Shown: positions 1-64,000 of the stretch, piece after piece
Numbering within the stretch: position 1 is the first letter of the stretch
How the letters are laid out: each line of letters opens with the position of its first letter
From: a virus
Lineage: Duplodnaviria > Heunggongvirae > Uroviricota > Caudoviricetes
Virus record (IMG/VR): IMGVR_UViG_3300029186_000001
Direction: 5' to 3' (one strand)
Length of the DNA: 64,000 nt
Program-made: the position numbers and the translations under genes
The notes under the pieces: generated by a model
The model's database searches: none
The model's input: the letters and a program-made list of their open reading frames with translations, nothing else
Told to the model about the DNA's origin: nothing

Positions 1-110
1 TATAGGTAGGGATTAAGACTAAAACGTTGGTTTAGGGGAAGGCTCGGCGCTGCCCGTTGGTGTACCTGTTCCATGGCCCTCAGCCACACCACCAACGGGG
101 TGGCTGAAAT
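1..110. repeat. Left arm of inverted repeat (identical to reverse complement of 2437-2546; similarity decays out to ~230 bp)
   Basis: Direct comparison of window 1-110 with reverse complement of 2437-2546. Confidence 0.85.
15..40 (+). promoter_or_regulatory. Putative Cin crossover site (cix/mix-like), aagactaaaacg-tt-ggtttaggggaa
   Basis: 26-bp site with AAAAC(G)-NN-GGTTT core resembling hix/gix/cix; identical to inverted copy at 2507-2532. Confidence 0.55.
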
Positions 111-493
111 GTAACGGAGCAGCATTTTCTTCTGAAAAGTACCCAAATCTGGCAAAGGCTTACCCTACTAATAAATTGCCGGATTTACGCGGTGAATTTA
201 TTCGTGGCTGGGATGACGGACGTGGTGTGGATGCCGGGCGACAATTATTATCTTCACAGGGGGATGCAATAAGAAATATTGAGGGGTTCGCAGATGGCGG
301 GATTGGCATGTCTTTTGATGCAATCAGAGGGGCTTTTTATGATGCAGGAACACGATCTGCGAGAATGCCGAATAACACAACTGATATAGGCAAAACCGAT
401 GACCTTGGATTCGACGCCTCTCGTGTCGTGCCAACAGCTAATGAAAACCGTCCTCGTAATATTGCCTTTAATTATATCGTAAGGGCGGCATAA
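23..493 (+). CDS. Tail-fibre variable C-terminal cassette 1 (S-variable-like, no start codon of its own; frame open from 23)
   Basis: Frame encodes GEGSALPVGVPVPWP...KLPDLRGEFIRGWDDGRG...RPRNIAFNYIVRAA; conserved N- and C-terminal blocks shared with the other cassettes. Confidence 0.6.
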   Translation, partial: NVGLGEGSALPVGVPVPWPSATPPTGWLKCNGAAFSSEKYPNLAKAYPTNKLPDLRGEFIRGWDDGRGVDAGRQLLSSQGDAIRNIEGFADGGIGMSFDAIRGAFYDAGTRSARMPNNTTDIGKTDDLGFDASRVVPTANENRPRNIAFNYIVRAA

Positions 494-512
494 AAACGTT
501 GGTTTGGGGGAA
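487..512 (+). promoter_or_regulatory. Putative internal crossover site between cassettes 1 and 2
   Basis: ggcataaaaacg-tt-ggtttgggggaa, same core as site 15-40, at cassette junction. Confidence 0.5.
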
Positions 513-932
513 GGCTCTGCACTGCCTGTTGGTGTGCCCGTTCCGTGGCCCTTAGAAACACCACCAACGGGCTGGCTAAAATGTAACGGAGCAGCATTTT
601 CTTCTGAAATGTATCCCAAACTGGCAAAAGCCTACCCCACCAATAAATTACCGGATTTACGCGGTGAATTTATCCGTGGCTGGGATGATGGGCGCGGGAT
701 TGATGCGGGACGTACCCTGCTTTCAGGGCAGGATGGTACAAGTTTTTCTCATTACGGAGGTAATTTCGACATTGGGTCTGGTCATTCAATCAATAACTAT
801 GACCAAATTGTTTCTAACCAACCAGGATTTTCCCGTTTTTCATTTGCAGGGCCTTCACGAGGTGATGGGGTTAATTATGTAACCATTCGTCCTCGTAACA
901 TTGCGTTTAATTATATCGTAAGGGCGGCATGA
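504..932 (+). CDS. Tail-fibre variable C-terminal cassette 2
   Basis: 142-aa ORF with same conserved ends and a divergent middle. Confidence 0.6.
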   Translation: MGEGSALPVGVPVPWPLETPPTGWLKCNGAAFSSEMYPKLAKAYPTNKLPDLRGEFIRGWDDGRGIDAGRTLLSGQDGTSFSHYGGNFDIGSGHSINNYDQIVSNQPGFSRFSFAGPSRGDGVNYVTIRPRNIAFNYIVRAA

Positions 933-951
933 AAACGTTGGTTTGGGAGAA
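926..951 (+). promoter_or_regulatory. Putative internal crossover site between cassettes 2 and 3
   Basis: ggcatgaaaacg-tt-ggtttgggagaa, same core, at cassette junction. Confidence 0.5.
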
Positions 952-1440
952 GGCTCTGCATTACCTGTTGGTGTCCCTGTTCCGTGGCCTTCAGCCACTC
1001 CGCCAACAGGCTGGCTGAAATGCAACGGTGCGGCTTTTTCTGCTGAAGAATACCCGGAACTGGCAAAGGCTTACCCGACAAATAAATTGCCTGATTTACG
1101 TGGTGAGTTCATTCGTGGCTGGGATGACGGGCGCGGGATTGATCCAGGTCGCTCTATTTTAAGCGAGCAAGGATATGCAACGGAGGATCATGCTCACGGA
1201 TTACCGTCAAAATCAACCGTAGCAACTGACAGCTCAATTAATTTCTACTTTGACGAGGCATGGGCTACTAGTGGTAATACGGGAGTTATCAGATGGGGGA
1301 ACACAAGCGATGCAGGATTGCCAGCCCCTAATTATGGAACTTTTAAAACATATAAACAGTCCGTAGCTAATTTAGGTACTGCTGGCTTAGAAACCCGCCC
1401 TCGTAATATTGCATTTAATTATATTGTGAGGGCGGATTAA
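943..1440 (+). CDS. Tail-fibre variable C-terminal cassette 3
   Basis: 165-aa ORF with same conserved ends and a divergent middle. Confidence 0.6.
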   Translation: MGEGSALPVGVPVPWPSATPPTGWLKCNGAAFSAEEYPELAKAYPTNKLPDLRGEFIRGWDDGRGIDPGRSILSEQGYATEDHAHGLPSKSTVATDSSINFYFDEAWATSGNTGVIRWGNTSDAGLPAPNYGTFKTYKQSVANLGTAGLETRPRNIAFNYIVRAD

Positions 1441-1445
1441 TTATA

Positions 1446-2057
1446 TCAACTGGCTGTAGAAAGTTGTTTTTCAGGCCAGTTGAGATCTGGTGCCGTGGTT
1501 AAATCCATCGCGTTCAGCTCGTCTATATAATCTAGCACGGAGTTAAGCTGCGTGGTTTCTGCCTGCGTCAACTTCCGTCCAGCCCGTAATTTCAACTGAA
1601 TCAGACTAATGGAATCCATCGCAGTATCAATCAATGACTGACGTTTTGTTTCTGCTGCCTCTACAGCTGCACTATGTTGAGCCTCAGTATCAACCACCCA
1701 TTTCTCTCCATCCCATTTGTCGTATGGTGTTAGCGGGGCGATAGTGGTTGTATTTTCCGGATAGTCACCCAACACCGTGATTTCTTCGGGATTCCCAGTG
1801 TCAATGCTATAGACAGTTTCGCCACGATGATCTGGCACATACTCCCATGAACTTAAATCCTCTGAACGGAGAATCGCATAACCTGCTTTATGTGAGCCTG
1901 GAGCATCCAAACAAGAATGTGCCGGAATACCAACGCCAACAGCAAGATATTCAGTTGATGCAGAAATATATTCCCGATTACCACCATCATAGTTATAAAC
2001 GATAATGTTTCCTGCCTGTATGGCTATAAGTTCGCTATTTAATATCGCATTATCCAT
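1446..2057 (-). CDS. U: Tail-fibre assembly chaperone (U-like, Tfa family)
   Basis: 203-aa ORF whose start overlaps the stop of minus-strand cassette 4 (ATAATGG); position and size match phage U/Tfa genes. Confidence 0.7.
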   Translation of the reverse strand: MDNAILNSELIAIQAGNIIVYNYDGGNREYISASTEYLAVGVGIPAHSCLDAPGSHKAGYAILRSEDLSSWEYVPDHRGETVYSIDTGNPEEITVLGDYPENTTTIAPLTPYDKWDGEKWVVDTEAQHSAAVEAAETKRQSLIDTAMDSISLIQLKLRAGRKLTQAETTQLNSVLDYIDELNAMDLTTAPDLNWPEKQLSTAS

Positions 2058-2524
2058 TATGCTGCTCTCACAATATAATTGAAGGCAATGTTACGTGGGC
2101 GGGTTTCATTCCCCCCAGATAACTCCGTTCTGTATTGACTGGTAAATTTACCATTAATCGCTCCTTCTTGGACGGCGTTATCTGTCGACAACAGACTATC
2201 CCCCCCTCTGTCATTTGGCACCAATACCGTGTTATCCCACGCGTCCCATGACCGAATATTATGATAATGACTTCCTGTTAACCACCCCTGTATGCTTAAG
2301 ATGACCCTTCCCGCATCCACACCTCGCCCATCATCCCAACCACGGATAAACTCACCGCGTAAATCAGGTAATTTTAACGTTGGGTAAACCTTTGCCAGAT
2401 TTGGGTACTTTTCAGAAGAAAATGCTGCACCATTGCATTTCAGCCACCCCGTTGGTGGTGTGGCTGAGGGCCATGGAACAGGTACACCAACGGGCAGCGC
2501 CGAGCCTTCCCCTAAACCAACGTT
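2057..2524 (-). CDS. Tail-fibre variable C-terminal cassette 4 (Sv-like), translationally coupled to U
   Basis: Minus-strand frame encodes the same GEGSALPVGVPVPWP...RGEFIRGWDDGRG...RPRNIAFNYIVRAA architecture. Confidence 0.6.
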   Translation of the reverse strand, partial: NVGLGEGSALPVGVPVPWPSATPPTGWLKCNGAAFSSEKYPNLAKVYPTLKLPDLRGEFIRGWDDGRGVDAGRVILSIQGWLTGSHYHNIRSWDAWDNTVLVPNDRGGDSLLSTDNAVQEGAINGKFTSQYRTELSGGNETRPRNIAFNYIVRAA

Positions 2525-2546
2525 TTAGTCTTAATCCCTACCTATA
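2437..2546. repeat. Right arm of inverted repeat flanking the invertible region
   Basis: Reverse complement matches window 1-110. Confidence 0.85.
2507..2532 (-). promoter_or_regulatory. Putative Cin crossover site, inverted orientation, cin-proximal
   Basis: Reverse complement identical to site 15-40; lies 55 bp upstream of cin start. Confidence 0.55.
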
Positions 2547-2586
2547 CCAACGATGTATTTTTAACTAAACAAAGAGGTTGTTTTTC

Positions 2587-3159
2587 ATGCAAATTGGCTA
2601 CATTCGTGTGTCAACAAATGACCAAAACACAGATTTACAAAGAAATGCACTGAACTGCGCAGGATGTGAACTGATTTTTGAAGATAAAATAAGCGGAACA
2701 AAGTCAGCCAGACCAGGCTTGAAAAAGCTGCTCAGAACGTTATCAGAAGGAGATACGCTGGTTGTCTGGAAGCTGGATAGGCTTGGCAGAAGTATGAAAC
2801 ACCTTATCACGCTTATAGAGGAGTTGCGGGAAAAAGGTGTTAATTTCCGTAGTCTGACAGACAGTATTGACACATCAACACCCATGGGGCGTTTCTTTTT
2901 TCACGTCATGGGGGCTTTAGCAGAAATGGAACGTGAATTAATTGTTGAGAGAACACTGGCCGGACTGGCAGCTGCACGCGAACAGGGACGCATTGGCGGA
3001 CGTCGCCCGAAGTTGACAAAAGAACAACATGAGCAAATAGCGAGGTTGATCGAAAATGGCTACAGCAGGAAACAGTTGGCAATTATTTACGATATCGGTG
3101 TATCGACGATTTATCGTTATCATCCTGTAGAGAAGCGCCAAACTCAATCTGAGCTGTAA
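2587..3159 (+). CDS. cin: Serine DNA invertase Cin (Hin/Gin/Cin family)
   Basis: MQIGYIRVSTNDQNTDLQ N-terminus with catalytic Ser context, C-terminal HTH; AAGAGG RBS 10 bp upstream of ATG at 2587. Confidence 0.9.
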   Translation: MQIGYIRVSTNDQNTDLQRNALNCAGCELIFEDKISGTKSARPGLKKLLRTLSEGDTLVVWKLDRLGRSMKHLITLIEELREKGVNFRSLTDSIDTSTPMGRFFFHVMGALAEMERELIVERTLAGLAAAREQGRIGGRRPKLTKEQHEQIARLIENGYSRKQLAIIYDIGVSTIYRYHPVEKRQTQSEL

Positions 3160-3249
3160 TTCTAATGCCGCGTCGGTGTAATTTATCTTGATAGAATAGG
3201 TACATTTATCGCGCGGCACATCAATTCGATGTATCTAGCGCCTGCTGAC

Positions 3250-3281
3250 CGCTAATGAAAACTGTCCTCGAAATGTTGTCC
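3250..3281 (+). repeat. Vestige of a tail-fibre cassette 3-prime end downstream of cin
   Basis: gctaatgaaaactgtcctcgaaatgttgtccc matches the cassette-1 end gctaatgaaaaccgtcctcgtaatattgcc at about 26 of 30 positions. Confidence 0.5.
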
Positions 3282-3594
3282 CTAGCCCGAGACTAGGGTA
3301 TCACCTCTGGAAAGCATACGCAGAACCTTTTTTAACCCAGGGTGCCCAGCCTTTTTGCTGCTCGCCTTATTCGCAAAAATTAGCTCACATCCTGCGCTTT
3401 CAAGTGCTTTTCACTGCATAGCTGTGTTTTGTTCATTTGTCTATATGCGTACATAGCCTATTAGCATATTTTCTGCCCACTATCGTTATTTATTGCAAGC
3501 TACAGGTTTTAATTAACAAAACCAGTGTGTGTGGAAATCACAAAGTGCATACCGTTCTCAGATGTTGTTCAACTTACTGTTGTATAGGTAAAAA

Positions 3595-3858
3595 ATGACA
3601 TTTTATGTACATATCGTGATGTTATCCCTTCTTGGTGGGGTGTATTCGTATTTGAGTGGGCTATGTGAAAACCGTTACGAGTCTTCATGCAAGAAATTGC
3701 TGGCCGAATGTATTTCCGCCGTACTTGCTGGCTTTATTGGCATGTATCTCGCGGAATATAAGGATATGAATGAAAGCCTTCAGAGCTGCATGGTTCTTAT
3801 TTTCAGCGCCAATAGCAGGCTTATTATTGAAGGTTCCAAAAGTCGGTTGAATAGGTAA
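3595..3858 (+). CDS. Hypothetical small hydrophobic protein
   Basis: 87-aa ORF upstream of the holin gene; hydrophobic N-terminal half. Confidence 0.35.
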   Translation: MTFYVHIVMLSLLGGVYSYLSGLCENRYESSCKKLLAECISAVLAGFIGMYLAEYKDMNESLQSCMVLIFSANSRLIIEGSKSRLNR

Positions 3859-3932
3859 GTCTCTTATGCAACATAACCGGTTGAGAAGTTACTTTGCATA
3901 CCATTACCTCCTGACAACGTAGGAGGGAACTT

Positions 3933-4262
3933 GTGCTTGACACACAGGAATTAGCTCCAGTTGCTATTGCGCTCCTGCTTTCAGTAATTGGTGGGATAGG
4001 CACGTTCCTGATGGATGTCCGAGACGGTCGCCAGTCTGGCAATTTGTTGGGATTGGTTACGGAGATCTTTGTTGCAGTGACAGCTGGCGCGGTGGCGTAC
4101 CTATTGGGGCAACACGAGGGCTGGGAGTTATCCATTACGTACTTAATGGTAACGATAGCCAGCAATAACGGTCATGAGGTGATTTCAGGGATGAAACGAG
4201 TGAATATCGATAGCATTCTGAATGTTCTTACAAGTTTGGTGAAAAAGGGAGGCGGGAAATGA
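3933..4262 (+). CDS. lydA: Holin LydA-like
   Basis: 109-aa ORF with transmembrane segments; GTG start preceded by AGGAGGGA RBS; first gene of darA operon by position. Confidence 0.65.
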   Translation: MLDTQELAPVAIALLLSVIGGIGTFLMDVRDGRQSGNLLGLVTEIFVAVTAGAVAYLLGQHEGWELSITYLMVTIASNNGHEVISGMKRVNIDSILNVLTSLVKKGGGK

Positions 4263-17285: not shown

Positions 17286-20200
17286 ATGAACAAGCTATCT
17301 ATGGGGGTATTTCGCTGTTCAAGTGTCAGCGAAATATTGAAATACATTAGGGCAATAACATCTCACCGAGCGCCGATTAAATACGGCGTGGAAAAGGTGG
17401 AAGGCAAAAGCTATGACCGACTGCGCCGTGAGGCGAATCAGAAGGCGATAGATTTGCTTAATTCGCTGGTGGACGGCGCGACACTGACAGATGAACAGCG
17501 CCAGATCCTGGCTGGGTACACCGGTGAAGGCGGCATTGGCGGGTCCGTCTCCGAATATTACACACCAAAGCCGATCGCTGAAGGTGTCTGGGAGATCATG
17601 AAGCTCTACGGCGCGGACGTAGGTAACACTCTGGAACCATCGGCGGGCACCGGCGTTTTTAATGAGACAAAACCGGTTGGTACGGTGATGACCGCGACTG
17701 AGATCAGCAGTGTTTCCGGTCGTATAAACCAGCTGTTACATCCGGAAGACAGCGTACAGATTTCCCCGTTCGAACAACTGGCTGTAAGCACGCCTAACGA
17801 TTCATTTGACCATGTTGTGGGTAACGTTCCGTTCGGTGGTCGTGATAACACACGCAACATCGATAAGCCTTACGCAGAAGAAACGGACATGGGTTCTTAC
17901 TTCATGCTCCGCATGCTGGACAAGATAAAGCCAGGCGGATTCATGTGCGTGATTGTGCCGCCGTCCATTGTTTCAGGTTCAAACATGAAGCGGTTACGCC
18001 TGCGCCTATCACGGAAAGCTGAATTTCTTGGTGCCCACCGCTTGCCTACCGGTACTTTTGACGCAAACGGGACCAGTACGGTCGTTGACGTGGTGCTGAT
18101 GCGCAAACATCCGGCGGAGATGGCTGAGAAAATCCCCCTGGTGGATGAAGGCACTCTTGAATCGGCAAATGTGCTTTGGCCAACGTTTATTTCTGGCAAG
18201 TGGTTTGAAAAGGACGGCCGCCGGTTTGTTCATGGCACTCAGGAGAAGGGATTCCAGGGGCGTATTGAGGTTCGTGCCGACGGGCAGATTGATAACCAGG
18301 CTCTTAAAGCGAAGCTGATTCATCGTTTCGAAAGTCGTATCGACTGGTCTTTGCTCGATATGGCTGAACCGTCACCGACCGCAGATGTTGTTGATGAAGG
18401 GGAAATGCGCCTGATTAATGGCGTATGGCAAAAATATGCTGGTGGTCGCTGGATTGAAGCTGATGCCGGGAAGGAGCTGAAGATTGAGGTTGCCAGTTAT
18501 GGCGCGGATAGCTGGGAGGCTCTTCAGCGTAACCTGACTACAACAGAAGGCCGTCTCGGTATGACATTTACCCAGATGGCAAATGTCCGCGATAAGTACA
18601 CCACATCAATCAGCGACGATATGGTGCAGCTGGTGGACTGGATTAACAGCCAGCCTGAAAAATACCGTGAACGCTTGTATCGTGGGGCGATGATTGGCCG
18701 GATGTTAATTGAATATCAGGACATGAAGGCCGCCGGGCATAGTGCTGAACAAATCGAACAGCAGCGCCTTTCTCTGGTATCCCGTTTGCAGGCAGAGATT
18801 GACCGTTTTGGTAACCCCGGTCGCGGTCCGATAGCGAAATTATCGGGGAGCGGTGCGCGCGCCTGGTTTGCTTTCCGTGGTGCAATTAAGCTGGATGGCA
18901 CTATTTCTGACGAGCTGACAGGAAAACTGGTTACGCATGATTCCAGCGCCAGTTATGACTCCACCAGCTATCAGGACACCCTGCGTTATCTCTACAGTGA
19001 TCTCACTCGCGATCCAATCCAGCTCGATGATTTCCGCCTTGCGTTTACCGGCGAACTGCCAGCCAGTGATGACGAGTTGCTTAATTTATTGGCCAGCACC
19101 CCTGGCATTGCGGTTTCACCGTATGGCGGGATTGTTCCGTTCGCCCGCGCCACCAGCGGCGACATTAACGAGATAGTGGCTCCAAAGCAGGAATTCCTCG
19201 CCACGCTCCCCGACGGTCCAGTAAAGAACAACGTCCTTAATCAGCTGGCAGCGATCGAAGAGAAGCGCATCAAGACGCCAGCAGAGAATATCCGGTTTAA
19301 GCTCAATAGCCGTTGGTTCGACCGTTCCGTGATTCTGGAATTTTTGCAGGAAAACGGCTATCCGGATCTGCGCTATGTGCAGTCAGTGCAGCTGGAAGGC
19401 GACGAAATGGTTTCTGACACCTATCACGGTGGTGATGGTCTGTTCGTCGGGCACCGATACGGTGTCGTCCAGCGCAAGGATAAAGAAACAGGCGAGATCC
19501 GCTACGAGTGGGACCGTAAATCAGGTGAAAACGCGACCGGGTTCCCGGCACAGCTGGAAAAGTATCTCAATGGTGCGCGTATCGGTGGCAAAGATAGCGC
19601 GACGGCGAACGGCTACCGCGAGCAGATGGCACTGCTTGAGGACCAGTTCAATAAGTGGATCAAGACGCACGATCGCTACGATGAGCTGGTTGCCAAATAC
19701 AACGATGTGTTCAATAGCAATATCCCGTATGAACACTCTGGCGATCCGCTTGGGTTGAAGGGATTAAGCGGTAAGCGCCAGCCATTTGATTACCAGAATA
19801 GCGAGGTGCGCCGACTGTCCGAAGATGGGCGCGGCATCCTGGGCTTCGGCACCGGGCTGGGTAAAACCACGACCGCGCTGGCGCTTGAGGCGTTCAACTA
19901 TGAGAACGGTCGCTCCACCCGTACTGCGTATGTAGTGCCTAAATCAGTGCTGGAAAACTGGTATTACGAAGCAAAAGAATTCCTGAGTGAAGAGGCATTC
20001 AGTAACTACCTGTTCGTCGGTCTTGATGTGCTGATGGATGGCGATCAGATTCGCCAGGTGCCGGTGCTCGATGAGAACGGTAAACCTGTTCTTGGTACTG
20101 ATGGCACTCCAGTTATGCGCGATGCTCTTAAGCTGGCAGATGAAGCCACTATCACGGCGCGGATGAACGCGATCCCGCACTCAAATTACCGTGCAGTCGT

Positions 20201-23200
20201 GTTTACCAAAGAACAATACGCCCGCATTCCGCTACGTGATGACACCGTAGATGAGCATGCACAGGATATGCTTTATGACTTCGTTGCCGCCGGGCGCGTA
20301 GCCAGCGCAATGGACTCCGACTCCCACCGCAAAGAGGCCGCGCGTCGCCGGGTATTGTCGGAGTATTCAGATACCGGCACCGAAAAAGCAGAGAAGTATC
20401 CGTACTTTGAGGATATGGGCTTCGATAGTGTGATCGCTGACGAAGGTCACAACTACCGCAATAGCTATAAAAATGGTCGCGAAGCGTCACAACTGGCCTA
20501 TCTGCCCACCAGCGCGGTGGCGCAATCGGCGCGGGATATGGCAATTAAAAACGCGTACCTGATGAAAAAGAATGGTGGGCGCGGACCGGTTCTCCTGACT
20601 GCAACGCCAGTCGTTAACACCCCGATCGATGCATACAACATGCTTTCTCATGTTCTGCCGAAGGAATACTGGCAGAAGATGGGGATCTACAGTCCTGATG
20701 ACTTCGTAAAATTCTTCGGCAAGACCAGGCTGGAAACGGTACAGAAAATCAGCGGTGAAGTTGAAGAAAAAATGGCGCTGGTGGGCTTTGAAAACCTTGA
20801 TGCGCTGCGCGGCATATTCCATCGCTGGACAACGCTTAAAACGGCGGAAGACGTTAAGGATACCGTGGAGATCCCGGAACTGGACGAACACCAGCAGGAT
20901 GCACCACTTACGGAAGAACAACTGGCGGCGTATGAAGAATTGCGTCAGCAGGCGGAAGCGGCAGCCAAAGCCAACAATGGCGTAACGACCTCGGTCAATG
21001 AAGACGGCGTGATTGAGCACGAGAAAGCCCGTCCGATCTTCTCAATAATCAGGGATATGGACCGCGTATGTACTGACATGGACCTGTACTATCGCAGGAT
21101 CACCTATCGTTTCCTGCCGGAGTACGCCGATGCGGTGCAGCAGCTGGCGGACAGTTTGCCTAAACAAGCCACCAGCGAAGACGACGACAGTGATGATTCG
21201 ATCACGCAGCAATCGCAATACTCCCTGATAGATAAGGGCGAGTTTATTCAGTTGCAGGTACCGGAAGCATTTGAGCAGGAAGTGAATAAGCGCCTGGCCA
21301 AGTTTGGCATTGACGAACAGACCGTAACTCACCCCGTTACGCCCAAATACGCGAAGCTGATTGCCACGCTGAAGGAGTTTTTCCCGGAAGGTAAGCAAAT
21401 CATCTTCACCGATGAAAAAACGCAACACCAGAAGCTCAAGCGCATTATCTGCAATGCTCTTAACCTTGAACCTTCAAAGGTGGGGATCCTGAATGCTCAG
21501 ACGGTTGCCGAGGCAGGTAAAACCGGTAAGAAACTGAAAGCGGTTAAACCACCGAAAGAGCTACCGGATGAACCAACAGATGCACAGATAGCGAAATACA
21601 ACGAGCAAATGGCTCTGTATGACGCCTATATCGCGCAGCAAAATGAAATGTCGCTGGGTGGGCTGGAAAAGATTGCTGCCGACTTCCAGGAGGGCCGGAC
21701 TCCGATCATCATCTGCAACAAAAAGGCAGAGGTGGGTATCAACCTGCATCGAGGAACGACTGACATCCATCATCTGACGTTGCCATGGACACCAGCCAGT
21801 ATCGCACAGCGTAACGGTCGCGGTGCCCGAGTTGGTTCCAACCGTGCAAGCGTTCGCGTTCACTACTACTGCGGCAAGGGTTCTTTCGATGAATACCGAC
21901 TGAAGACGCTGAAGCGTAAAGCAGGCTGGATCTCCGATATCCTCCGCTCAGATAAGTCTGAAATGGAGAACGCCGACGCCAACGATATGATCGAAATGCA
22001 GATGTATACCGCTAAGGATGATGGCGAACGTCTGGCAATGATGCAGGTTCAAATGGATAAGGCGAAAGCCGCGCAACGCGCTCGCCAGAAAGAACAGGCT
22101 ACTATCGACCTTCAGAACTACATCAAGGCGCAGCACGCAGCTGGCGAGGATGTGGAGGTACTTACCGCTGAATTAGAGCGAAGCAAAGCGGAACTTGAAA
22201 AGACCACCGCCGAGGTAGCTAAATTCAAACAGGCGGCAATGGCCAAGGCAGCGGATAACGCAGACTGGAAGGCCCGCTGGGGGAGTGTCCATCACACAGA
22301 CCGTATGTTGTTAGCACAGTATCGCGCGTCGTTGAAAAGCGCCATTCAGCGCAAGGCTAATATCTCTCAAGCCATCTCCCGCTATGAGAAATTATTGAAC
22401 CGTACTCAGAAGGCCGCGACGGATATCAAACGCCTGCGCCCGCTGGTGGAGGATGCAATAAATAAAGGCATTCTGGATGTAGATCCTGACCTGGTTAACC
22501 ATGCGAGTGAGTTCCTTGTTATCGGCGATCGCTCATGGCGTGTAGGCCAATACTACGATTGTGCCGGTGATATCGTTCGCATTAAGTCGCTGGACTTCGA
22601 CAGCCAGCGCGCAGACGTGGAGATCATCTTTACCTTCAAAGGCACCAAATCGGGTAACTGGGATGTGAAGACGCTGGATAAACAGGTGGATGTAACTCCC
22701 GATGAAGATGCTGTTATGCAGAAAATCAGTGGTGGCGTCTCCATCGCCGGGATTAACGACATCATTTCCTGTGACGATTTCTACCGTTTCCAGCAGCGCG
22801 GCATGATCAAAATCACTGACTCATACGGCGTTCAGACTACAGAGTCAGGCTATAGCATTGATTTTGTTGGCACCTATACGGACCCACTGAAGCATGCGGT
22901 TTACCCGGATCGCCGTGACGGCGCGCTGAAGTCGTCAATTGCAAAATGGGTGCTTGGTATGATGTCGGAAGGGAATAACCGCCAGATCCGTTCGGCAGAA
23001 ACATTCCTGGTTGAATTGTTTGGCTCCAATTATGGCGATGTAATCGCGTCATACGGAGATACGCTATCCCCTGAAGCAATTCAGGAGAAAATAGCGGATG
23101 CGATCGCCAGAATGCCGGAAAAAACAAGCCAGGGGTCTACTCGTAACGGGGATTCTGAACTTGAAGTCACCAATGCCATTTTCGGTACCAATGAGTTCCG

Positions 23201-24053
23201 GGCGTCAGATTATGAGATCACCACAGCACAGTTTGGCACCATTGGCATTTACAGCAATAAAGACGAGATCAAGCAGGCAATGGACGCAGCAAGTGCGCGC
23301 ATTGCAGCAGAACGGAAAGCCAATCTGAATCATGCAGTCGCCGCGCTGACTCAATCGTGGGTAACAGCAATCAGGGAGGCCGCCACCACAGGAAAAATCA
23401 CACCGGCAATTGCGGATGTCGTAAACGACGGCTCTAAATTTATGGATGCCTATCAAATGGATGCGGTGAAGTTGCCATCAGCCTATGGTCAACTCAGCTA
23501 TCGCATGACCTACAACCTGGTATCAATGTTTTCCGACCTTGCCATCCTTGGGCTGGTGGATCTTAACGAGGTTACGCCGGAATTGCTCAGCATGCGCAAG
23601 AATCATGTGGAGATATTGCAGAGAGTTAACACGGTTCTTGCCGGACGCACCGATGAAGAGAAACAGGCCGACGCTGATCGGATAAACCTGGCCCTTGGCA
23701 ACATCACGGAGGAAGAAATTGCCGCCAGAAACGAGAAACAAGAAGAGTTATCATCAATACAGGGTGATGCCACCAGCATAGCTCAGTCTCTTGGTCTGAA
23801 TTATCGCGTATCCACCGCCGACCTGAAGATGATGTACGCACCAAAATTCGCCGCTGGCGAGGTATTTGGGCTTCAGGAAGCCTCAGGCATGAAAGGCGTT
23901 CTTTTCCGTGCGAAAGACGCAATCAAGGCGAAATTCGGCGCTCGCTGGCTGCCAGCGAAGGCGAAGAACAGCGATTTCCCGGGTAACTGGTGGATTATCG
24001 AGACAAAACACAACGTGGCGGACGTTCTGGCCGTCATCCAACAATACGCATAA
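17286..24053 (+). CDS. darB: DarB antirestriction protein (N6-adenine methyltransferase-like domain fused to DExH helicase)
   Basis: 2255-aa ORF; VGNVPFGG methyltransferase-like motif near N-terminus and VIADEGHNYRN DExH motif mid-protein. Confidence 0.85.
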   Translation: MNKLSMGVFRCSSVSEILKYIRAITSHRAPIKYGVEKVEGKSYDRLRREANQKAIDLLNSLVDGATLTDEQRQILAGYTGEGGIGGSVSEYYTPKPIAEGVWEIMKLYGADVGNTLEPSAGTGVFNETKPVGTVMTATEISSVSGRINQLLHPEDSVQISPFEQLAVSTPNDSFDHVVGNVPFGGRDNTRNIDKPYAEETDMGSYFMLRMLDKIKPGGFMCVIVPPSIVSGSNMKRLRLRLSRKAEFLGAHRLPTGTFDANGTSTVVDVVLMRKHPAEMAEKIPLVDEGTLESANVLWPTFISGKWFEKDGRRFVHGTQEKGFQGRIEVRADGQIDNQALKAKLIHRFESRIDWSLLDMAEPSPTADVVDEGEMRLINGVWQKYAGGRWIEADAGKELKIEVASYGADSWEALQRNLTTTEGRLGMTFTQMANVRDKYTTSISDDMVQLVDWINSQPEKYRERLYRGAMIGRMLIEYQDMKAAGHSAEQIEQQRLSLVSRLQAEIDRFGNPGRGPIAKLSGSGARAWFAFRGAIKLDGTISDELTGKLVTHDSSASYDSTSYQDTLRYLYSDLTRDPIQLDDFRLAFTGELPASDDELLNLLASTPGIAVSPYGGIVPFARATSGDINEIVAPKQEFLATLPDGPVKNNVLNQLAAIEEKRIKTPAENIRFKLNSRWFDRSVILEFLQENGYPDLRYVQSVQLEGDEMVSDTYHGGDGLFVGHRYGVVQRKDKETGEIRYEWDRKSGENATGFPAQLEKYLNGARIGGKDSATANGYREQMALLEDQFNKWIKTHDRYDELVAKYNDVFNSNIPYEHSGDPLGLKGLSGKRQPFDYQNSEVRRLSEDGRGILGFGTGLGKTTTALALEAFNYENGRSTRTAYVVPKSVLENWYYEAKEFLSEEAFSNYLFVGLDVLMDGDQIRQVPVLDENGKPVLGTDGTPVMRDALKLADEATITARMNAIPHSNYRAVVFTKEQYARIPLRDDTVDEHAQDMLYDFVAAGRVASAMDSDSHRKEAARRRVLSEYSDTGTEKAEKYPYFEDMGFDSVIADEGHNYRNSYKNGREASQLAYLPTSAVAQSARDMAIKNAYLMKKNGGRGPVLLTATPVVNTPIDAYNMLSHVLPKEYWQKMGIYSPDDFVKFFGKTRLETVQKISGEVEEKMALVGFENLDALRGIFHRWTTLKTAEDVKDTVEIPELDEHQQDAPLTEEQLAAYEELRQQAEAAAKANNGVTTSVNEDGVIEHEKARPIFSIIRDMDRVCTDMDLYYRRITYRFLPEYADAVQQLADSLPKQATSEDDDSDDSITQQSQYSLIDKGEFIQLQVPEAFEQEVNKRLAKFGIDEQTVTHPVTPKYAKLIATLKEFFPEGKQIIFTDEKTQHQKLKRIICNALNLEPSKVGILNAQTVAEAGKTGKKLKAVKPPKELPDEPTDAQIAKYNEQMALYDAYIAQQNEMSLGGLEKIAADFQEGRTPIIICNKKAEVGINLHRGTTDIHHLTLPWTPASIAQRNGRGARVGSNRASVRVHYYCGKGSFDEYRLKTLKRKAGWISDILRSDKSEMENADANDMIEMQMYTAKDDGERLAMMQVQMDKAKAAQRARQKEQATIDLQNYIKAQHAAGEDVEVLTAELERSKAELEKTTAEVAKFKQAAMAKAADNADWKARWGSVHHTDRMLLAQYRASLKSAIQRKANISQAISRYEKLLNRTQKAATDIKRLRPLVEDAINKGILDVDPDLVNHASEFLVIGDRSWRVGQYYDCAGDIVRIKSLDFDSQRADVEIIFTFKGTKSGNWDVKTLDKQVDVTPDEDAVMQKISGGVSIAGINDIISCDDFYRFQQRGMIKITDSYGVQTTESGYSIDFVGTYTDPLKHAVYPDRRDGALKSSIAKWVLGMMSEGNNRQIRSAETFLVELFGSNYGDVIASYGDTLSPEAIQEKIADAIARMPEKTSQGSTRNGDSELEVTNAIFGTNEFRASDYEITTAQFGTIGIYSNKDEIKQAMDAASARIAAERKANLNHAVAALTQSWVTAIREAATTGKITPAIADVVNDGSKFMDAYQMDAVKLPSAYGQLSYRMTYNLVSMFSDLAILGLVDLNEVTPELLSMRKNHVEILQRVNTVLAGRTDEEKQADADRINLALGNITEEEIAARNEKQEELSSIQGDATSIAQSLGLNYRVSTADLKMMYAPKFAAGEVFGLQEASGMKGVLFRAKDAIKAKFGARWLPAKAKNSDFPGNWWIIETKHNVADVLAVIQQYA

Positions 24054-24813: not shown

Positions 24814-26118
24814 CTATATAAACTTAGATATAATATCGTGAATCTGTTGTAGCGGGATTTCTTCCATCTTACTCTTAATAAGAGAGCGGTTAGATGCTGT
24901 CAGTGAAGGCCATTTTGTTTTCCAGGCTAGATATGCTCGCCATGAGTAGCCTGTTTCGTAAGGTTTATTCATATAAGTCATTGAGTGTTCAACCGCATGT
25001 ATGTATTTTTTCTCAAAGTTGGTTCCTTTTACTTCAAATAAACTACCGAAATAAATAAGCCATTTTGCCAGGTGTTCATACTGCTCCCATGCGCCAGACT
25101 CTTTAGTAAGATCTATTTTTTTATCTATTATATCACAAAAAACATTTAATACCTTTTCATCATTCCAGCTATATCCAGATGATGAAATGGAGGAAATGAT
25201 ATGATAAAAAGAATCCTCTAACTTCAAGAACTCTATTTTATACTCTCTTCCGTTTTTTATTACCGATTTGATTGAGTGCCTCAATTTGTCTTTTATTTTT
25301 TTTGCTTCTGGAATTTTCTTGTTAAGTTTTCTAAAGAAATCAGACACCTCTGTTTTATCTATAACCCTAATCCCAAAGCAGGAAAAATAGTAATCTTTAA
25401 TAGGTTGCAATAGTTTCCCTCGGGAAATAAGGAAAATATTGGAGGACATTACGTTGTCCCGTGAAAATACCTTATATTCATTTATAATCGCCTTGAGGTT
25501 CGCGTCACTTAGAGAATAGCCAAGAATAACAATAGTGTTTTCATGTAGAACTGTGCTTAGTTTATTTGAAAAGTAAGAATTACCATTTATAAATCTGAAA
25601 TAATCCTCGCTAGTAACAACCATATCTGATGGGGAGTCTATAGAGCCGTGAACATGGTAGACTTTAACCTCACAATTATATTTTGGAATTGGCAGGCCGG
25701 GGGTGATTGTACACGTTCGATTCTCTCCAGCCAGTTTTTCTGCTAACTTGTCATAATTTGTCGTAATTACTTTAAATGTGTTTTCTTTGAAAAAGTCTTG
25801 AATATATTCAATTGATGGATCAAGTTCGATTGAGGCTATGATTTTCTCAATCTCCTGGTAAATATTTTTCCCCGAAAGTATAAATTTTAGTGCAATAACC
25901 TGAGCAGCCTCTTCAAGGCTAAGGTCTTTTGCTTTTCCATCAGGAAATAATTCCTCTTTGAGTGAGTCACCATCCTTCAATAAACCGCACAGTTGCTCCA
26001 ATAAAGATTGCCAACTTGGGGCTTTATCATCAGAAACAGCCTTTGAAAATCCAGTGCCTGTAAGAAAGCACAGCCTATGTGTAGCTGCTGCATAGGCAAT
26101 TTCTATATACTCGCTCAT
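24814..26118 (-). CDS. SIR2-like (sirtuin/NADase-type) domain protein with uncharacterised C-terminal helical domain; candidate antiphage effector
   Basis: 434-aa ORF; motifs FLTGTGFS, TTNYD, VYHVHGS and LGYSLSD in the N-terminal ~270 aa; GGAG RBS; markedly AT-rich relative to flanks. Confidence 0.8.
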   Translation of the reverse strand: MSEYIEIAYAAATHRLCFLTGTGFSKAVSDDKAPSWQSLLEQLCGLLKDGDSLKEELFPDGKAKDLSLEEAAQVIALKFILSGKNIYQEIEKIIASIELDPSIEYIQDFFKENTFKVITTNYDKLAEKLAGENRTCTITPGLPIPKYNCEVKVYHVHGSIDSPSDMVVTSEDYFRFINGNSYFSNKLSTVLHENTIVILGYSLSDANLKAIINEYKVFSRDNVMSSNIFLISRGKLLQPIKDYYFSCFGIRVIDKTEVSDFFRKLNKKIPEAKKIKDKLRHSIKSVIKNGREYKIEFLKLEDSFYHIISSISSSGYSWNDEKVLNVFCDIIDKKIDLTKESGAWEQYEHLAKWLIYFGSLFEVKGTNFEKKYIHAVEHSMTYMNKPYETGYSWRAYLAWKTKWPSLTASNRSLIKSKMEEIPLQQIHDIISKFI

Positions 26119-58826: not shown

Positions 58827-59754
58827 CCTCTCACTCCATTATTTAACGAATAAAAAAGCTGCGGTGCCGGGTGCCTCCCGGTGTCCTTTGGCTGGTTATC
58901 CACCGTGGACGGGGAAACAAGGAGAAATGAATGGACTGATATAACCATTTCCCCGCGTGCGCTTAGCCGCATTCACCGCAACGGAAAGAGCATTCTTGGT
59001 GGACCTGTAGATTGGGATATGAACCCGTTACAGGAGAATGCTCTTACCTGTTACGTGCTCCGTTTCGTGGAGCTAACGGCGGGTGATCGGGCCGCACCAG
59101 GCTGGACTTATTTCAGCGTTATGCTCATGCCAGAGAATCAAACTGTGATGGTCGGTGCTGAACTCCGACACAGGGTTGTAGCAAGCCCCGCAAAGCGCGC
59201 ACTACTGTAGTTGCGGCACATCAGCCTGTGCATTCACCACAATGTTGATAACACTGGTTGTCACGCTGCAACGCAACATTTATTCGTAGATTGGGATATG
59301 ACCCCGTTACGCCAGTGTTCTCAACGTTGTAGTGCCGGTTACGGTTCCGGCCAGGCCTCTTCCTCAACGGGGTGTTCTCCATACGGACTACCGTTTATTG
59401 GTCGTTCCTGCGGTTTATGTTGTGAAGCCAGATGCTTATCTTCTGGTTGCTTCAAAGAGCTGCACTTCATCACAACGGTAAGAGCACTCGATGCATTTAA
59501 GCCAAGCCCCATAAGGGAGAATGCCCTTACCTGTTGTGTTGTGATGACCGGTGCTGATCTCCGGCTTGCGGTTATTTCAGACTCTCACGGGCGTTTAATT
59601 GCCCCGCCGAACAGCTCTTTTCCGCAATAGCTGCAATGTCTTTCGCGCATCAGCCTGCGCATTCATCACAACGGTAAGGGTACTTTGTAGGGATTCGAAC
59701 CCTCTGCCAAGCTCGGCGATCTCCGACGTCGCAAAATACCCTTACCTGTTGTGC

Positions 59755-59830
59755 TGGTGCCGATTAACGGACTCGAACCGCTGACATCCTGCTTACAAGG
59801 CAGGCGCTCTACCAACTGAGCTAAACCGGC
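59755..59830 (-). tRNA. tRNA-Thr (UGU)
   Basis: Manual fold: GCCGGTT acceptor, CTTGTAA anticodon loop, GGTTCGAGTCC T-arm, CCA end. Confidence 0.8.
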
Positions 59831-59832
59831 AT

Positions 59833-59908
59833 TGGCGATGGTGGATGGATTTGAACCATCGACCCGTTGATTAACAGTCAACCGCTCTAACCGCTGAGCT
59901 ACACCATC
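59833..59908 (-). tRNA. tRNA-Asn (GUU)
   Basis: Manual fold: GATGGTG acceptor, CTGTTAA anticodon loop, GGTTCAAATCC T-arm, CCA end. Confidence 0.8.
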
Positions 59909-60562
59909 ACTTGCCGGGTACGTCTCCGGCGAGGGCTTCCACCTCCGTATGCTTTTCGGCGCACCGCGCCCTGGCTGCAATTCGGTAACAGGGGATGCAT
60001 AACCCTGGCTTCCAGCGTGATTAGCGCCTTCAGCATGACGGGATATACCCGTAAATTCGTGGAACTGTACCCAAAGTGCTGTTAAGCACCGCTGTTACGC
60101 TGAAAAGAAGACGCAACAGGAAAGGACGCTGACCAACAGATGGCCCCTTCTCGTTCATCTGGTTAATCACACCAGCGCCCTTACCTGTTGTGCCTCCCCG
60201 TTCCCTAATACACAGACGGGGACACTCTGCGGTCGATTTTTTGACGGGGGACGACTCATACCCCGTGGCGTCTGGCTTCTTAGGCCGCTACCATCATCAG
60301 ATCATCGTTTGCATTTACTTTAATGGTCAGTTTCTAAACCGCCGCAAAGTCGCTAACCATGACGAAAACCCTGAAAAAAACGCCCACCCGAAGATGGGCA
60401 AACTGGAAGCTCGTAACGCACTTCGGCGTTGCCACTTAGGCGCATGGTCAACCTGGCAACTCGGTGGTTTGTCTGGGAGGACTAGGCCCAGCCATGCTTA
60501 CCGCCGCGCCTGTCGCGGCTAACAGCTAAATCGCTCTATAAATCACGATTCATTGAGGCGAT

Positions 60563-60590
60563 ATTACACTAATAAATTTATTAGAGCAAT
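60563..60590. promoter_or_regulatory. Overlapping pair of C1 operator-like 17-mers (bipartite palindromic)
   Basis: attacactaataaattt overlapping aaatttattagagcaat. Confidence 0.55.
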
Positions 60591-62845: not shown

Positions 62846-63750
62846 TGCTTAGCCTCTCCACCAAGGGCATTTACCAGAGCATCAACCAGGCACGAAATTT
62901 CACTGGTCAACAGGAAGAAATCTGCGTCCAGTCGCTGCGCAACATCTTCACTATCAATATCAGAGTTCTGCTCAAGCAATTCATCCGCAAATTTGACGCT
63001 GGTAAGGCTGAAGTTATGGTCCAGTGTAAATTTAATGCGGTTCTGCCAGTCGAGTGCCAACTTAGTAACGAGCTTGCCAGCTTCCAGGTGTGTGGAAATT
63101 TCATCGCTTCCCAAATCCTGCTTTTTCACTCGGGCAATACCGCCATCCTCAAGCACTGCCTTAAGTTCTGCCGCATCCCCCATTTGAAATCCCTGTGGAG
63201 CACTACCATCACGTACCCAGTCGGTCAGCGTTAATTCAATGGGATTTTCAACACTCAGGGGAACAACAGGAAGAGAACCCAGAGACTTACGCATAAGCGC
63301 GAGCATATCCTCTGCCTGCCGCGCGCTGGCATTGATATAGATACGTTTAGTTGAACCGTCGTAGATCGCCTGGATAACAGAAAACTTTGAAAAAGCCCGT
63401 GGCAGAAGAGAATGCAGAACTTCGTCTTTCAGGGAGTCCTTCTCTGTTTTCTTCAGTTTACGCGCTTGTTCTTGCTCAAGTTTTTCAATTTTTTCTTGAA
63501 TAGCTCGCTGGATAACCGGCGGGGGAAGAATTTTTGTTTCGCGCTTTGCTTCAACAAGGATAAAACCATTTCCATGCATAGCGATAACTTCGGAATTATC
63601 ACCAAATGGAGATACAAAACCGAACTTGGCCATATCCTGACTACCGCATGGCGTGAAAAGGATCATTTTCTTTTTATCTTCTAAGTCGGTCAGATCCGCC
63701 TCACGAGAAAGTTTATAAATAGTAATGTTTTTCCAGTGCTTAAACATGTT
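62842..63750 (-). CDS. hrdC: RdgC-like recombination-associated protein HrdC
   Basis: 303 aa from ATG at 63750; [16 protein letters not shown]...[13 protein letters not shown]...[23 protein letters not shown] aligns closely with E. coli RdgC. Confidence 0.85.
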
Positions 63751-64000
63751 GTAACCCTTGAATATCAACCACAGAAAGCTCGTCTTTGTAGAAAAAGGCC
63801 AGGTTGTGGCACCCCCTCGTTTGAGCGTATGAGCTGGGACCAATTTCGTTCTTCCAGACAAATGGCTTCAAATCCGTACGGCGAAGCATAAAAACGCGAT
63901 TTGTTCCGCTCTGATTCCCAATGAGGCAAAAGCCTTCTTTCACCTTGATAGCCTGCAAGTTGTCGAGTTCACCGCTGGTTACACGGCTATCGAACTCCTT
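63740..64000 (-). CDS. Hypothetical protein, 3-prime end only (runs off window)
   Basis: Minus-strand frame ending at 63740, just upstream of hrdC start. Confidence 0.3.

What the first reader, a model, noticed from the sequence alone, without database searches (positions are those of the whole stretch)
1..40. Crossover sites are preceded by in-frame stops; outer flank at window start mirrors the cin-proximal flank
In the cassette-1 frame there are TAA stops at 14-16 and 20-22, immediately left of the putative crossover centre at 27-28. The first 26 bp of the window are an exact inverted copy of the sequence beside cin (2521-2546), so identity extends beyond the 12-bp outer half-site. No variable cassette is therefore fused in frame to an upstream constant part within the window, and the S constant region must lie left of position 1 or be joined differently than in P1.
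Basis: seen in the sequence. Interest (0 to 1): 0.4.

Follow-up and report, generated by a model that had tools for sequence, protein, structure and literature searches.

The report
Truncated edge of tail-fibre inversion region
The window opens inside the well-known switch that P1-like phage-plasmids use to swap tail-fibre tips, and the "mirrored" first 26 bases are most likely the sequence end catching the alternative flipped state, not a new way of joining the gene.

Summary
Window 1-26 is an exact inverted copy of 2521-2546, exact to nt 111. TAA stops lie at 14-16 and 20-22 in the cassette-1 frame, and all four cassettes have in-frame stops 2-6 codons before the crossover codon.

The locus is a p15B-Min-type multiple-inversion region of a P1-like phage-plasmid. 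It has four tail-fibre 3' cassettes, one tail-fibre assembly gene, four 26-bp sites with a TT core, and a serine invertase.

In 31 related loci the 26-mer is single-copy and always continuous with the invertase upstream region. In relatives the constant S part enters through its own site (TTCTTAATTACC-TT-GGTTTGGGGGAA) in open frame, with the same TT and the same frame as in P1.

Cassette 1 occurs elsewhere behind the invertase flank, behind another cassette, or fused to S. The sequence switches exactly at 26|27, which supports the inferred crossover position.

The window carries both c1|flank and c4|flank junctions, and a one-flank plasmid cannot hold both. It is therefore most likely an end-of-sequence composite of two inversion isomers. 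S-constant, R and gp16 are absent from all 64 kb.

This is an ordinary, known system. I could not recover the source record.

The parts
1..26 (+). Mirrored copy of the invertase-proximal flank: 14 nt of flank plus the 12-nt outer half-site at 15-26. It carries TAA 14-16 and TAA 20-22 in the c1 frame.
   Evidence: Exact reverse complement of 2521-2546. Identical 26-mers in 31 related loci are always preceded by the invertase upstream region. Window 1-520 is 100% identical to L087 and L089, where it continues into reverse-complemented invertase.
15..40 (+). Crossover site 1: aagactaaaacg TT ggtttaggggaa, core TT at 27-28.
   Evidence: The breakpoint is mapped to 26|27 by comparing c1 in Sc-fused, internal and flank-proximal contexts.
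26..493 (+). Cassette c1: tail-fibre C-terminal module, 155 codons from crossover codon GTT to TAA 491-493. Silent here.
   Evidence: Pfam Collar PF07484, E=3e-15. The same cassette is fused to S-constant in L012.
487..512 (+). Crossover site 2: ggcataaaaacg TT ggtttgggggaa, core 499-500. The outer half-site contains the c1 stop codon.
498..932 (+). Cassette c2, 144 codons, silent. In-frame TAA at 480-482 upstream.
926..951 (+). Crossover site 3: ggcatgaaaacg TT ggtttgggagaa, core 938-939.
937..1440 (+). Cassette c3, 167 codons, silent. In-frame TAA at 919-921 upstream. Convergent with tfa.
1446..2057 (-). Tail-fibre assembly (chaperone) gene, co-directional with and directly downstream of c4.
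   Evidence: Pfam Caudo_TAP, E=3e-30. The exact protein is listed in 3496 blocks of the public collection. The c4-tfa-c3 block is an invariant module in relatives.
2057..2521 (-). Cassette c4, 154 codons, silent here. Its first 85 nt after the core are identical to c1.
2507..2532 (-). Crossover site 4, the only site in inverted orientation. On the minus strand it reads aagactaaaacg TT ggtttaggggaa; core at 2519-2520.
2521..2586 (+). Invertase-proximal flank (upstream region of the invertase gene). Single copy in relatives.
   Evidence: Identical over 96 nt (the 26-mer plus the 70 nt next to it) in 31 loci. 147 plasmids match flank plus gene start, 122 of them at 99% identity or better, and nearly all have one place per record.
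2587..3159 (+). Serine DNA invertase (Min/Cin family, 190 aa), transcribed away from the cassettes.
   Evidence: Pfam Resolvase E=2e-51 plus HTH_7 E=3e-15. Identical to UniRef Q05517_ECOLX 'DNA-invertase'. 139/191 aligned positions (73%) identical to P1 Cin.
2605..2676 (+). Stretch homologous to the annotated P1 cin recombinational enhancer. Inferred by position only.
   Evidence: Alignment with P1 cin nt 1-120, whose nt 19-90 are annotated as the enhancer. 86 of 120 columns are invariant. Function was not tested.

Best explanation
The window opens inside the multiple-inversion tail-fibre region of a P1-like phage-plasmid of the p15B 'Min' type.

How the system works. A serine invertase (2587-3159) acts on 26-bp sites, each made of 12-bp half-sites around a TT core. 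It inverts any stretch bounded by two oppositely oriented sites. The constant 5' part of tail-fibre gene S ends in one such site, where the TT forms bases 2-3 of a Leu codon. Each inversion therefore splices a different 3' cassette (c1-c4) onto S. Unselected cassettes are silent because the sequence in front of their site carries in-frame stops. That sequence is either the end of the previous cassette or the non-coding invertase flank.

The first 26 nt. They are that invertase flank joined to c1. This is a genuine junction of the isomer in which c1 lies next to the invertase. The same window also shows c4 joined to the one true flank at 2520. A monomer has only one flank, so the window combines junctions from two inversion isomers. 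The most likely cause is that the sequence (contig) ends here, in a repeat that is heterogeneous in the sequenced population. The S-constant part and its site are simply not in the window.

Shown: the anatomy, the site positions, the contexts in relatives, and the absence of S-constant. Inferred: the enzymology, from the Cin/Gin/Hin family, and the composite or edge origin of nt 1-26.
For: 1. Anatomy: four Collar-domain cassettes, one Caudo_TAP gene, and an invertase with Resolvase plus HTH_7 domains. There are four AAACGTTGGTTT cores, three on + and one on -.

2. In complete relatives the region is always Sc-site(+) ... invertase-flank site(-) invertase(+). Only the window has a flank-type site at its left end.

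3. The 26-mer is single copy in L001 and L002. In all 31 loci that carry it, it occurs once and is preceded by the identical 70-nt invertase upstream sequence. None of 18 viral-contig stretches has two copies.

4. Window 1-520 is 100% identical to L087 and L089, where it runs leftwards into reverse-complemented invertase. c1 (27-517) is identical in L012, where it is fused to S-constant and the only differences in that stretch are at 1-26. It is also identical in L001, L086 and L088, where it sits behind another cassette and differences are confined to 5-20. So flank|c1 is a natural isomer junction, and the exchange point is at 26|27.

5. A complete plasmid, NZ_CP098199.1, has rc(invertase)-flank-c1-c3-tfa(-)-c4(-)-rc(S). 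This is the alternative isomer of the order seen in the window.

6. The S-constant part (904 aa), R and gp16 have no match in the 64 kb, by megablast or tblastn.

7. Assemblies commonly break here:
- A SPAdes contig ends 55 nt past a core.
- A 2021-nt 'plasmid' record, NZ_CP142924.1, runs from one site to the inner half of an inverted site.
- Many draft contigs end within this region.
- PMC4134206 documents spurious contigs and warns of artefactual duplications caused by tail-fibre inversion heterogeneity.
Against: - I could not recover the source record, so I have not shown that window position 1 is a sequence end.
- The exact repeat length of 111 nt does not equal a common de Bruijn k (99, 119, 127, 141), so a simple k-mer-overlap artefact is not demonstrated.
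- Only 26 nt of flank are visible. They cannot distinguish a truncated composite from a real second, inverted copy of the flank and invertase.
- No read data were available to show that the population is mixed.
Confidence: 0.78

Rival explanations
1. The mirrored flank is real. The molecule carries two inverted copies of the invertase flank, and probably of the invertase gene, on both sides of the cassette cluster. One route would be invertase-mediated inversion between the flank site of one plasmid copy and the S-linked site of the other copy in a dimer. S-constant would then be detached from this cluster.
For: - The geometry is achievable by one inversion in a head-to-tail dimer (my inference from the site orientations).
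- Aberrant but genuine recombination products exist in this family. Contig 3300030379_000127 carries both reciprocal junctions of an inversion between the S-linked site and a quasi-site inside the invertase gene.
- At least one of 147 plasmids (at most four, from 151 places) has two copies of flank plus invertase start.
Against: - The one two-copy plasmid I inspected (NZ_CP080254.1) has a direct repeat straddling the record start, not an inverted one.
- 31/31 loci and 18/18 viral stretches have a single flank.
- The simple alternative isomer already explains the flank|c1 junction, with 100% identical examples.
- It would be a coincidence for an arbitrary window to start 26 nt outside the outermost site.
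Confidence: 0.08
2. One reading: the S-constant region lies directly left of position 1, or S is joined to its variable part by a different arrangement than in P1. One version has a stop-containing spacer between S-constant and the first site.
For: The window contains no S-constant. In the circular relatives S does lie on that side of the cassette cluster.
Against: - Nt 1-26 are not S sequence. Everywhere else they are contiguous with the invertase gene.
- In every relative with a complete region, S-constant runs in open frame through its own site TTCTTAATTACC TT GGTTT. There is no spacer, and the phase is the same as at P1 cixR.
Confidence: 0.05
3. The in-frame stops ahead of each site are a selected silencing device. 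On this view they are a functional element in their own right, not a by-product.
For: All four sites have them. The internal ones come from a conserved ...ATC GTA AGG GCG... cassette end read in the +1 frame, and this is conserved across cassettes.
Against: - Silent cassettes also lack a promoter, an RBS and a start codon, so stops are not needed for silencing.
- The internal TAA is a by-product of the conserved C-terminal ...NYIVRAA coding sequence.
- A stop within 8 codons of AT-rich non-coding DNA is expected by chance in roughly a third of cases (my estimate).
Confidence: 0.1

Closest known systems
Min multiple DNA-inversion system of plasmid p15B (E. coli 15T-). Sandmeier, Iida, Arber and co-workers 1990-1992, cited in PMC5903667 and PMC11850598.
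   Same: - P1-like phage-plasmid backbone.
- More than two crossover sites, giving overlapping invertible segments.
- Several alternative 3' tail-fibre cassettes for one constant 5' part.
- The invertase flank and gene start are 98.3% identical to those of pJIE250-3 (NZ_MN510445.1). PMC6906374 reports the pJIE250-3 invertase as 98.5% identical to p15B Min and as reversed relative to P1 cin.
- The invertase protein is identical to UniRef Q05517_ECOLX.
   Different: - This window shows only four sites and four cassettes and lacks the S-linked boundary. Related plasmids carry between three and at least nine sites.
- I could not read the p15B sequence (X62121) directly, so cassette-by-cassette identity to p15B is untested.
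Cin / C-segment inversion of bacteriophage P1 (NC_005856)
   Same: - Same gene neighbourhood: lyd/dar operon, invertase, invertible segment, S, R, gene 16.
- 26-bp sites with a TT core.
- The S-constant side reads ..Y L G L.. through the core in the same codon phase.
- The invertase is 73% identical in protein sequence.
   Different: - P1 has two sites, one 4.2-kb segment and two Sv/U gene pairs. Here there are at least four sites, short cassettes of about 0.45 kb and a single assembly gene.
- P1 cin reads into the segment, and cixL overlaps its stop codon. Here the invertase reads away, and the site lies 67 nt upstream of its start codon.
Gin (Mu G segment), Pin (e14), and P2-like prophage tail-fibre invertases such as E. 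coli EC958 Phi2
   Same: - Same enzyme family and same site design.
- EC958 Phi2 sites TCCTCAATTACC TT GGTTTAGGAGAA (gene side) and GAGAGATAAACG TT GGTTTGGGGGAA (distal) closely resemble the S-type and internal sites here (PMC4134206 Table 3).
- The same flank and invertase also occur on a P2-like backbone (L020).
   Different: Those systems have two sites and a single segment. They sit on a different phage backbone.
R64 shufflon (Rci)
   Same: It shares the logic of many sites and one constant gene with alternative 3' ends, biased towards inversion.
   Different: Rci is a tyrosine recombinase acting on sfx sites, and its target is the pilV adhesin. It is unrelated in both enzyme and site.

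Membership tests
Cin/Gin/Hin/Pin/Min ('Din') serine DNA-invertase systems | Invertase of about 190 aa with an N-terminal resolvase catalytic domain and a C-terminal HTH_7 domain | tested here: met
   PF00239 E=2e-51 (residues 3-135) and PF02796 E=3e-15 (residues 138-180). 73% identical to P1 Cin.
Cin/Gin/Hin/Pin/Min ('Din') serine DNA-invertase systems | 26-bp crossover sites: two imperfect 12-bp inverted half-sites around a 2-bp core, matching the family consensus | tested here: met
   Four sites of the form nnnnnTAAAACG TT GGTTTnGGnGAA. They agree with the consensus and the EC958 sites quoted in PMC4134206 Table 3 and with P1 cixL and cixR.
Cin/Gin/Hin/Pin/Min ('Din') serine DNA-invertase systems | Exchange actually occurs at the core, between inverted sites | tested here: met
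   The same cassette is found in three flanking contexts, with the identity boundary at 26|27. Both orientations of the c4-tfa-c3 module occur among relatives. This is comparative evidence, not biochemical.
Cin/Gin/Hin/Pin/Min ('Din') serine DNA-invertase systems | Fis-dependent recombinational enhancer in the 5' part of the invertase gene | tested here: inconclusive
   The homologous stretch aligns without gaps to the annotated P1 enhancer region, with 86 of 120 columns invariant. Fis sites and function were not tested.
Cin/Gin/Hin/Pin/Min ('Din') serine DNA-invertase systems | Constant 5' gene part reading in frame through one site into the selected variable part | tested here: not met
   Not met within this window: all four cassettes are preceded by stops, and S-constant is absent. 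It is met in relatives L001, L002 and L012, so the lack reflects truncation of the sequence, not the design of the system.
p15B Min-type multiple inversion region | More than two crossover sites, giving overlapping invertible segments with several alternative cassettes | tested here: met
   Four sites and four cassettes in the window. Three to at least nine sites in related plasmids.
p15B Min-type multiple inversion region | Invertase is Min, not P1 Cin, and is oriented opposite to P1 cin | tested here: inconclusive
   The opposite orientation is shown. The link to Min is indirect: 98.3% nucleotide identity to pJIE250-3 over flank plus gene start, whose invertase PMC6906374 reports as 98.5% identical to p15B Min. 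The p15B sequence itself was not available to compare.
P1 C-segment (Cin) system in the strict sense | Two cix sites flanking one 4.2-kb segment with Sv/U and Sv'/U' pairs, and cixL overlapping the 3' end of cin | tested here: not met
   P1 annotation and sequence compared with the window anatomy.

The most novel reading that the evidence does not exclude
The left flank is real. This element, or a dimer of it, underwent an invertase-mediated inversion between sites on two copies. The result is a cassette cluster bracketed by two inverted invertase flanks and genes and uncoupled from the S-constant gene. That would be a naturally occurring 'orphaned' cassette cluster (shufflon) that can still shuffle but cannot express any cassette.
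Probability: 0.07. Interest if true: 0.35.

Novelty: already known. Interest (0 to 1): 0.1.

Why it matters
Little new biology is at stake. Multi-site tail-fibre inversion in p15B and P1-like plasmids has been known since about 1990, and silent cassettes preceded by stops are its normal state.

The practical value is for annotation and quality control:
- Sequence ends, duplicated flanks and 2-kb pseudo-plasmids are recurrent by-products of inversion heterogeneity at this locus. They should not be read as structural novelties.
- The comparison of c1 in three contexts gives a clean, sequence-only mapping of the exchange point to the TT at 27-28.

Tried and rejected
1. Recovering the source record to read left of position 1. 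None of the following found it.
- Exact 60-140-nt patterns from window 1-60, 1-140, 241-300 and 1243-1302 were scanned in viral contigs and metagenome contigs, and the 33-nt flank-plus-site pattern in genome contigs.
- BLAST of window 1-3300 against phages, plasmids and E. coli genomes.
- Exact-protein look-ups.
- IMGVR_UViG_3300045988_155300 looked like the source because it is 100% identical over window 1303-3953. It is only 99.0% identical at 59468-64000, so I rejected it.

2. De Bruijn k-mer overlap as the cause. The exact repeat is 111 nt, which does not match the usual k values (my knowledge of assembler defaults). The idea is neither confirmed nor excluded.

3. Chimeric c1. I asked whether c1's first 85 nt were copied from c4 by mis-assembly. 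This is rejected, because c1 carries the same 27-111 sequence when fused to S in L012 and when internal in L001, L086 and L088.

4. Promoter in the flank, as a reason for its conservation. No sigma-70 consensus hit was found in 2380-2700.

5. Plasmids with two invertase flanks. The one I inspected has a direct duplication across the record start, not an inverted pair.

6. The original p15B papers (for example PMC53420) are not held in the library.

Full report
**Observation.** Reading the sequence confirms the finding. Nt 1-26 (TATAGGTAGGGATTAAGACTAAAACG) are the exact reverse complement of 2521-2546. The 26-mer occurs only at these two places, and none was found in 100 shuffles. The inverted identity is exact to nt 111, with the first mismatch at 112, and 92% over 237 nt. 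In the cassette frame the codons upstream of the crossover codon GTT (26-28) read ATA GGT AGG GAT TAA GAC TAA AAC, so TAA lies at 14-16 and 20-22. I extended the check to the other sites. Each of the four cassettes has an in-frame TAA 2-6 codons before its crossover codon: at 480-482 for site 2, at 919-921 for site 3, and on the minus strand at 2533-2531 and 2527-2525 for site 4.

**Anatomy.** The first 3.2 kb hold the following features.
- Four tail-fibre C-terminal cassettes with a Phage Tail Collar domain: c1 26-493, c2 498-932 and c3 937-1440 on the + strand, and c4 2057-2521 on the - strand.
- One tail-fibre assembly gene (1446-2057, - strand), directly downstream of c4 and convergent with c3.
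- A 190-aa serine invertase (2587-3159, + strand) with Resolvase and HTH_7 domains.
- Four 26-bp sites of the form (12 nt) TT GGTTT[A/G]GG[G/A]GAA. Their cores are at 27-28, 499-500 and 938-939 on the + strand and 2519-2520 in inverted orientation. The 12-mer AAACGTTGGTTT occurs 4 times against 0.35 expected.

Downstream follow holin genes (annotated as such in L001/L002; lydA-like), a LydB-family gene, DarA-related genes and a DarB-sized 2255-aa methylase-helicase gene, that is, a P1-like phage-plasmid. The invertase protein is identical to UniRef Q05517_ECOLX 'DNA-invertase'.

**Relatives.** The region is very common. 269 plasmids and 2630 of 5426 complete E. coli genomes match part of window 1-3300, and the exact tfa protein is indexed in 3496 blocks of the public collection. 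In complete relatives (L001, L002, L010-L019, L096 and others) the layout is always the same: the S gene (constant part about 900 aa), then an S-type site, then cassettes in either orientation, then the flank-type site in inverted orientation, then the invertase. The window is the only sequence in my set with a flank-type site at its left end. The 26-mer is single copy in L001 and L002. In all 31 loci that contain it, it is preceded by the identical 70 nt that lead into the invertase start codon. None of 18 viral-contig stretches has two copies. Among 147 plasmids matching flank plus gene start there are 151 places in all. The one two-copy record I opened is a direct repeat across the record start.

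**How S is joined.** In L001 and L002 the constant part reads ...AGC GTT CTT AAT TAC CTT GGT TTG GGG GAA GGC... (S V L N Y L G L G E G). Its site is TTCTTAATTACC TT GGTTTGGGGGAA, and the TT core forms bases 2-3 of a Leu codon. P1 cixR reads ...ATC CAA TAC CTT GGT TTA AGA GAA..., with the same phase. So S is joined here exactly as in P1. It is not met: the open frame runs through a site at the inferred position.

**Mapping the crossover from natural isomers.** Cassette c1 occurs elsewhere in three contexts.
- In L087 and L089, window 1-520 is matched with 0 mismatches, and the sequence continues leftwards into reverse-complemented invertase. L090, L091 and L095 (1-2 mismatches, all beyond nt 505), L013 (3) and L006 (7) are in the same context.
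- In L012 (CP048611.1), c1 is fused to S-constant. Differences from the window fall at positions 1-26, with one further mismatch at 518.
- In L001, L086, L088, L092, L093 and L094, c1 follows another cassette. Differences fall within 3-20, apart from one or two single mismatches beyond nt 470, because 21-26 (AAAACG) are shared.

Identity therefore begins exactly at 27. The flank joined to different cassettes diverges from position 34. The exchange point is thus bracketed to 27-33, which fits the TT at 27-28. This also shows that c1's first 85 nt, identical to c4's, are native to c1 and not an assembly chimera.

**What the mirrored flank is.** flank|c1 is a genuine junction of the isomer in which c1 is the invertase-proximal cassette. 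One example is the complete plasmid NZ_CP098199.1, which reads rc(invertase)-flank-c1-c3-tfa(-)-c4(-)-rc(S). The window's internal order (c1 c2 c3 tfa- c4-, then flank and invertase) is that of the other isomer, produced by inversion between the two outermost sites. In that isomer c1 should be joined to S-constant. The window therefore holds two junctions, flank|c1 and c4|flank, that a one-flank monomer cannot hold together. The simplest reading is that the sequence ends here, in a region that was heterogeneous in the sequenced population, and that its last 26 nt come from the alternative isomer.

Supporting context:
- A GTDB-representative SPAdes contig of a related plasmid ends 55 nt past a crossover core.
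- The 2021-nt 'plasmid' NZ_CP142924.1 is just c4-tfa-c3-c2, running from one site to the inner half of an inverted site.
- Many draft contigs end in this region.
- PMC4134206 documents spurious contigs caused by tail-fibre inversion and warns explicitly of artefactual duplications.

It would also be a coincidence for an arbitrary window to start 26 nt outside the outermost site. S-constant (904 aa), R and gp16 have no match anywhere in the 64 kb, by megablast or tblastn. The tail-fibre operon is therefore outside the window.

**Limits.** I could not find the source record. The best candidate contig turned out to be a 99% relative. The 111-nt exact repeat does not match a standard assembler k. 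A real inverted duplication, for example from inversion within a plasmid dimer, cannot be excluded from 26 nt. I give it about 8%.

**Comparison with known systems.** This is the p15B Min type of the Cin/Gin/Hin/Pin/Min family.
- It has multiple sites and short cassettes.
- The invertase is oriented away from the segment, whereas P1 cin reads into the C segment and cixL overlaps its stop codon.
- It is 73% identical in protein sequence to P1 Cin.
- Its flank and gene start are 98.3% identical to those of pJIE250-3. PMC6906374 reports the pJIE250-3 invertase as 98.5% identical to p15B Min and as reversed relative to P1 cin.
- The P1 enhancer region aligns without gaps, with 86 of 120 columns invariant, but enhancer function is untested.

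**Mechanism.** This is inferred from the family. Invertase dimers bind two inverted sites and make 2-nt staggered cuts at TT. The subunits rotate and the strands are religated. This swaps everything 3' of the Leu/Val codon.

**Verdict.** The system is already known. The mirrored flank is most probably an end-of-sequence composite, and the in-frame stops are the ordinary state of silent cassettes. Interest is low.

Noticed in passing
L007:4748-4773 and L079:1047-1075 (adjacent pieces of IMGVR_UViG_3300030379_000127). The equivalent quasi-site is at window 2926-2951, inside the invertase gene.: Both reciprocal junctions of an inversion between the S-linked site and a quasi-site inside the invertase coding sequence (aattaattcacg TT ccatttctgcta). 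One junction reads rc(invertase 3' part)-TT-GGTTTGGGGG-c1. The other reads S-constant ...TTCTTGATTACC-TT-CCATTTCTGC, running into rc(invertase 5' part). The event splits both the invertase and S and should lock the region. It recalls the Cin quasi-sites of Iida and Hiestand-Nauer, a reference listed in PMC4134206.
   Followed up: yes
NZ_CP142924.1 (L099, 2021 nt), CP088785.1 (L100, 2058 nt, 'circular'), NZ_JBQJRT010000008.1 and NZ_JBQJRS010000014.1: RefSeq and GenBank records of 2-3 kb deposited as replicons (NZ_CP142924.1 and CP088785.1 are labelled plasmids) that consist only of tail-fibre cassettes and tfa. I inspected L099 and L100 (the other two I know only from the BLAST hit tables): L099 is bounded by inverted crossover sites and has the order c4-tfa-c3-c2, the same segment as window 499-2520. 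They look like assembly by-products of inversion heterogeneity, not plasmids.
   Followed up: partly
window 937-2521; relatives: c4, tfa and c3 form an invariant module in all relatives that have them: c4 and tfa co-directional, c3 convergent. It flips as a unit. There is only one assembly or chaperone gene for four or more cassettes, so cassettes other than c4 would be expressed without a co-transcribed tfa. P1 differs, because each Sv there has its own U.
   Followed up: no
L020 (OLEK01000685.1, 1676 nt): The same 26-nt flank plus 70 nt of invertase upstream sequence, next to a related invertase gene, sits on what appears to be a different, possibly P2-like, backbone (my reading of the flanking sequence, not checked with a tool). 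The adjacent cassette is a hybrid: c1-like for about the first 160 nt, then c4. This indicates mosaicism or gene conversion among the conserved cassette 5' ends.
   Followed up: partly
NZ_CP080254.1 (L102 and L103): record 96000-101399 and 1-4000: A 'complete' mcr-1 P1-like plasmid with a direct duplication of holins, invertase and cassettes straddling the record start. It may be an untrimmed circularisation overlap.
   Followed up: partly
window 24814-26118 (-) and 17286-24053 (+): A SIR2_2-domain protein (434 aa) sits next to the 2255-aa DarB-like methylase-helicase gene. A relative (L034) has a RelA_SpoT-domain gene at the same place instead. This looks like a variable defence or anti-defence slot.
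   Followed up: no
loci (IMG metagenome 3300045988): One metagenome contributes at least eight P1-like contigs of 52-82 kb, three of them 81-82 kb. This suggests many co-occurring strains and recurrent assembly breaks at the same places.
   Followed up: no
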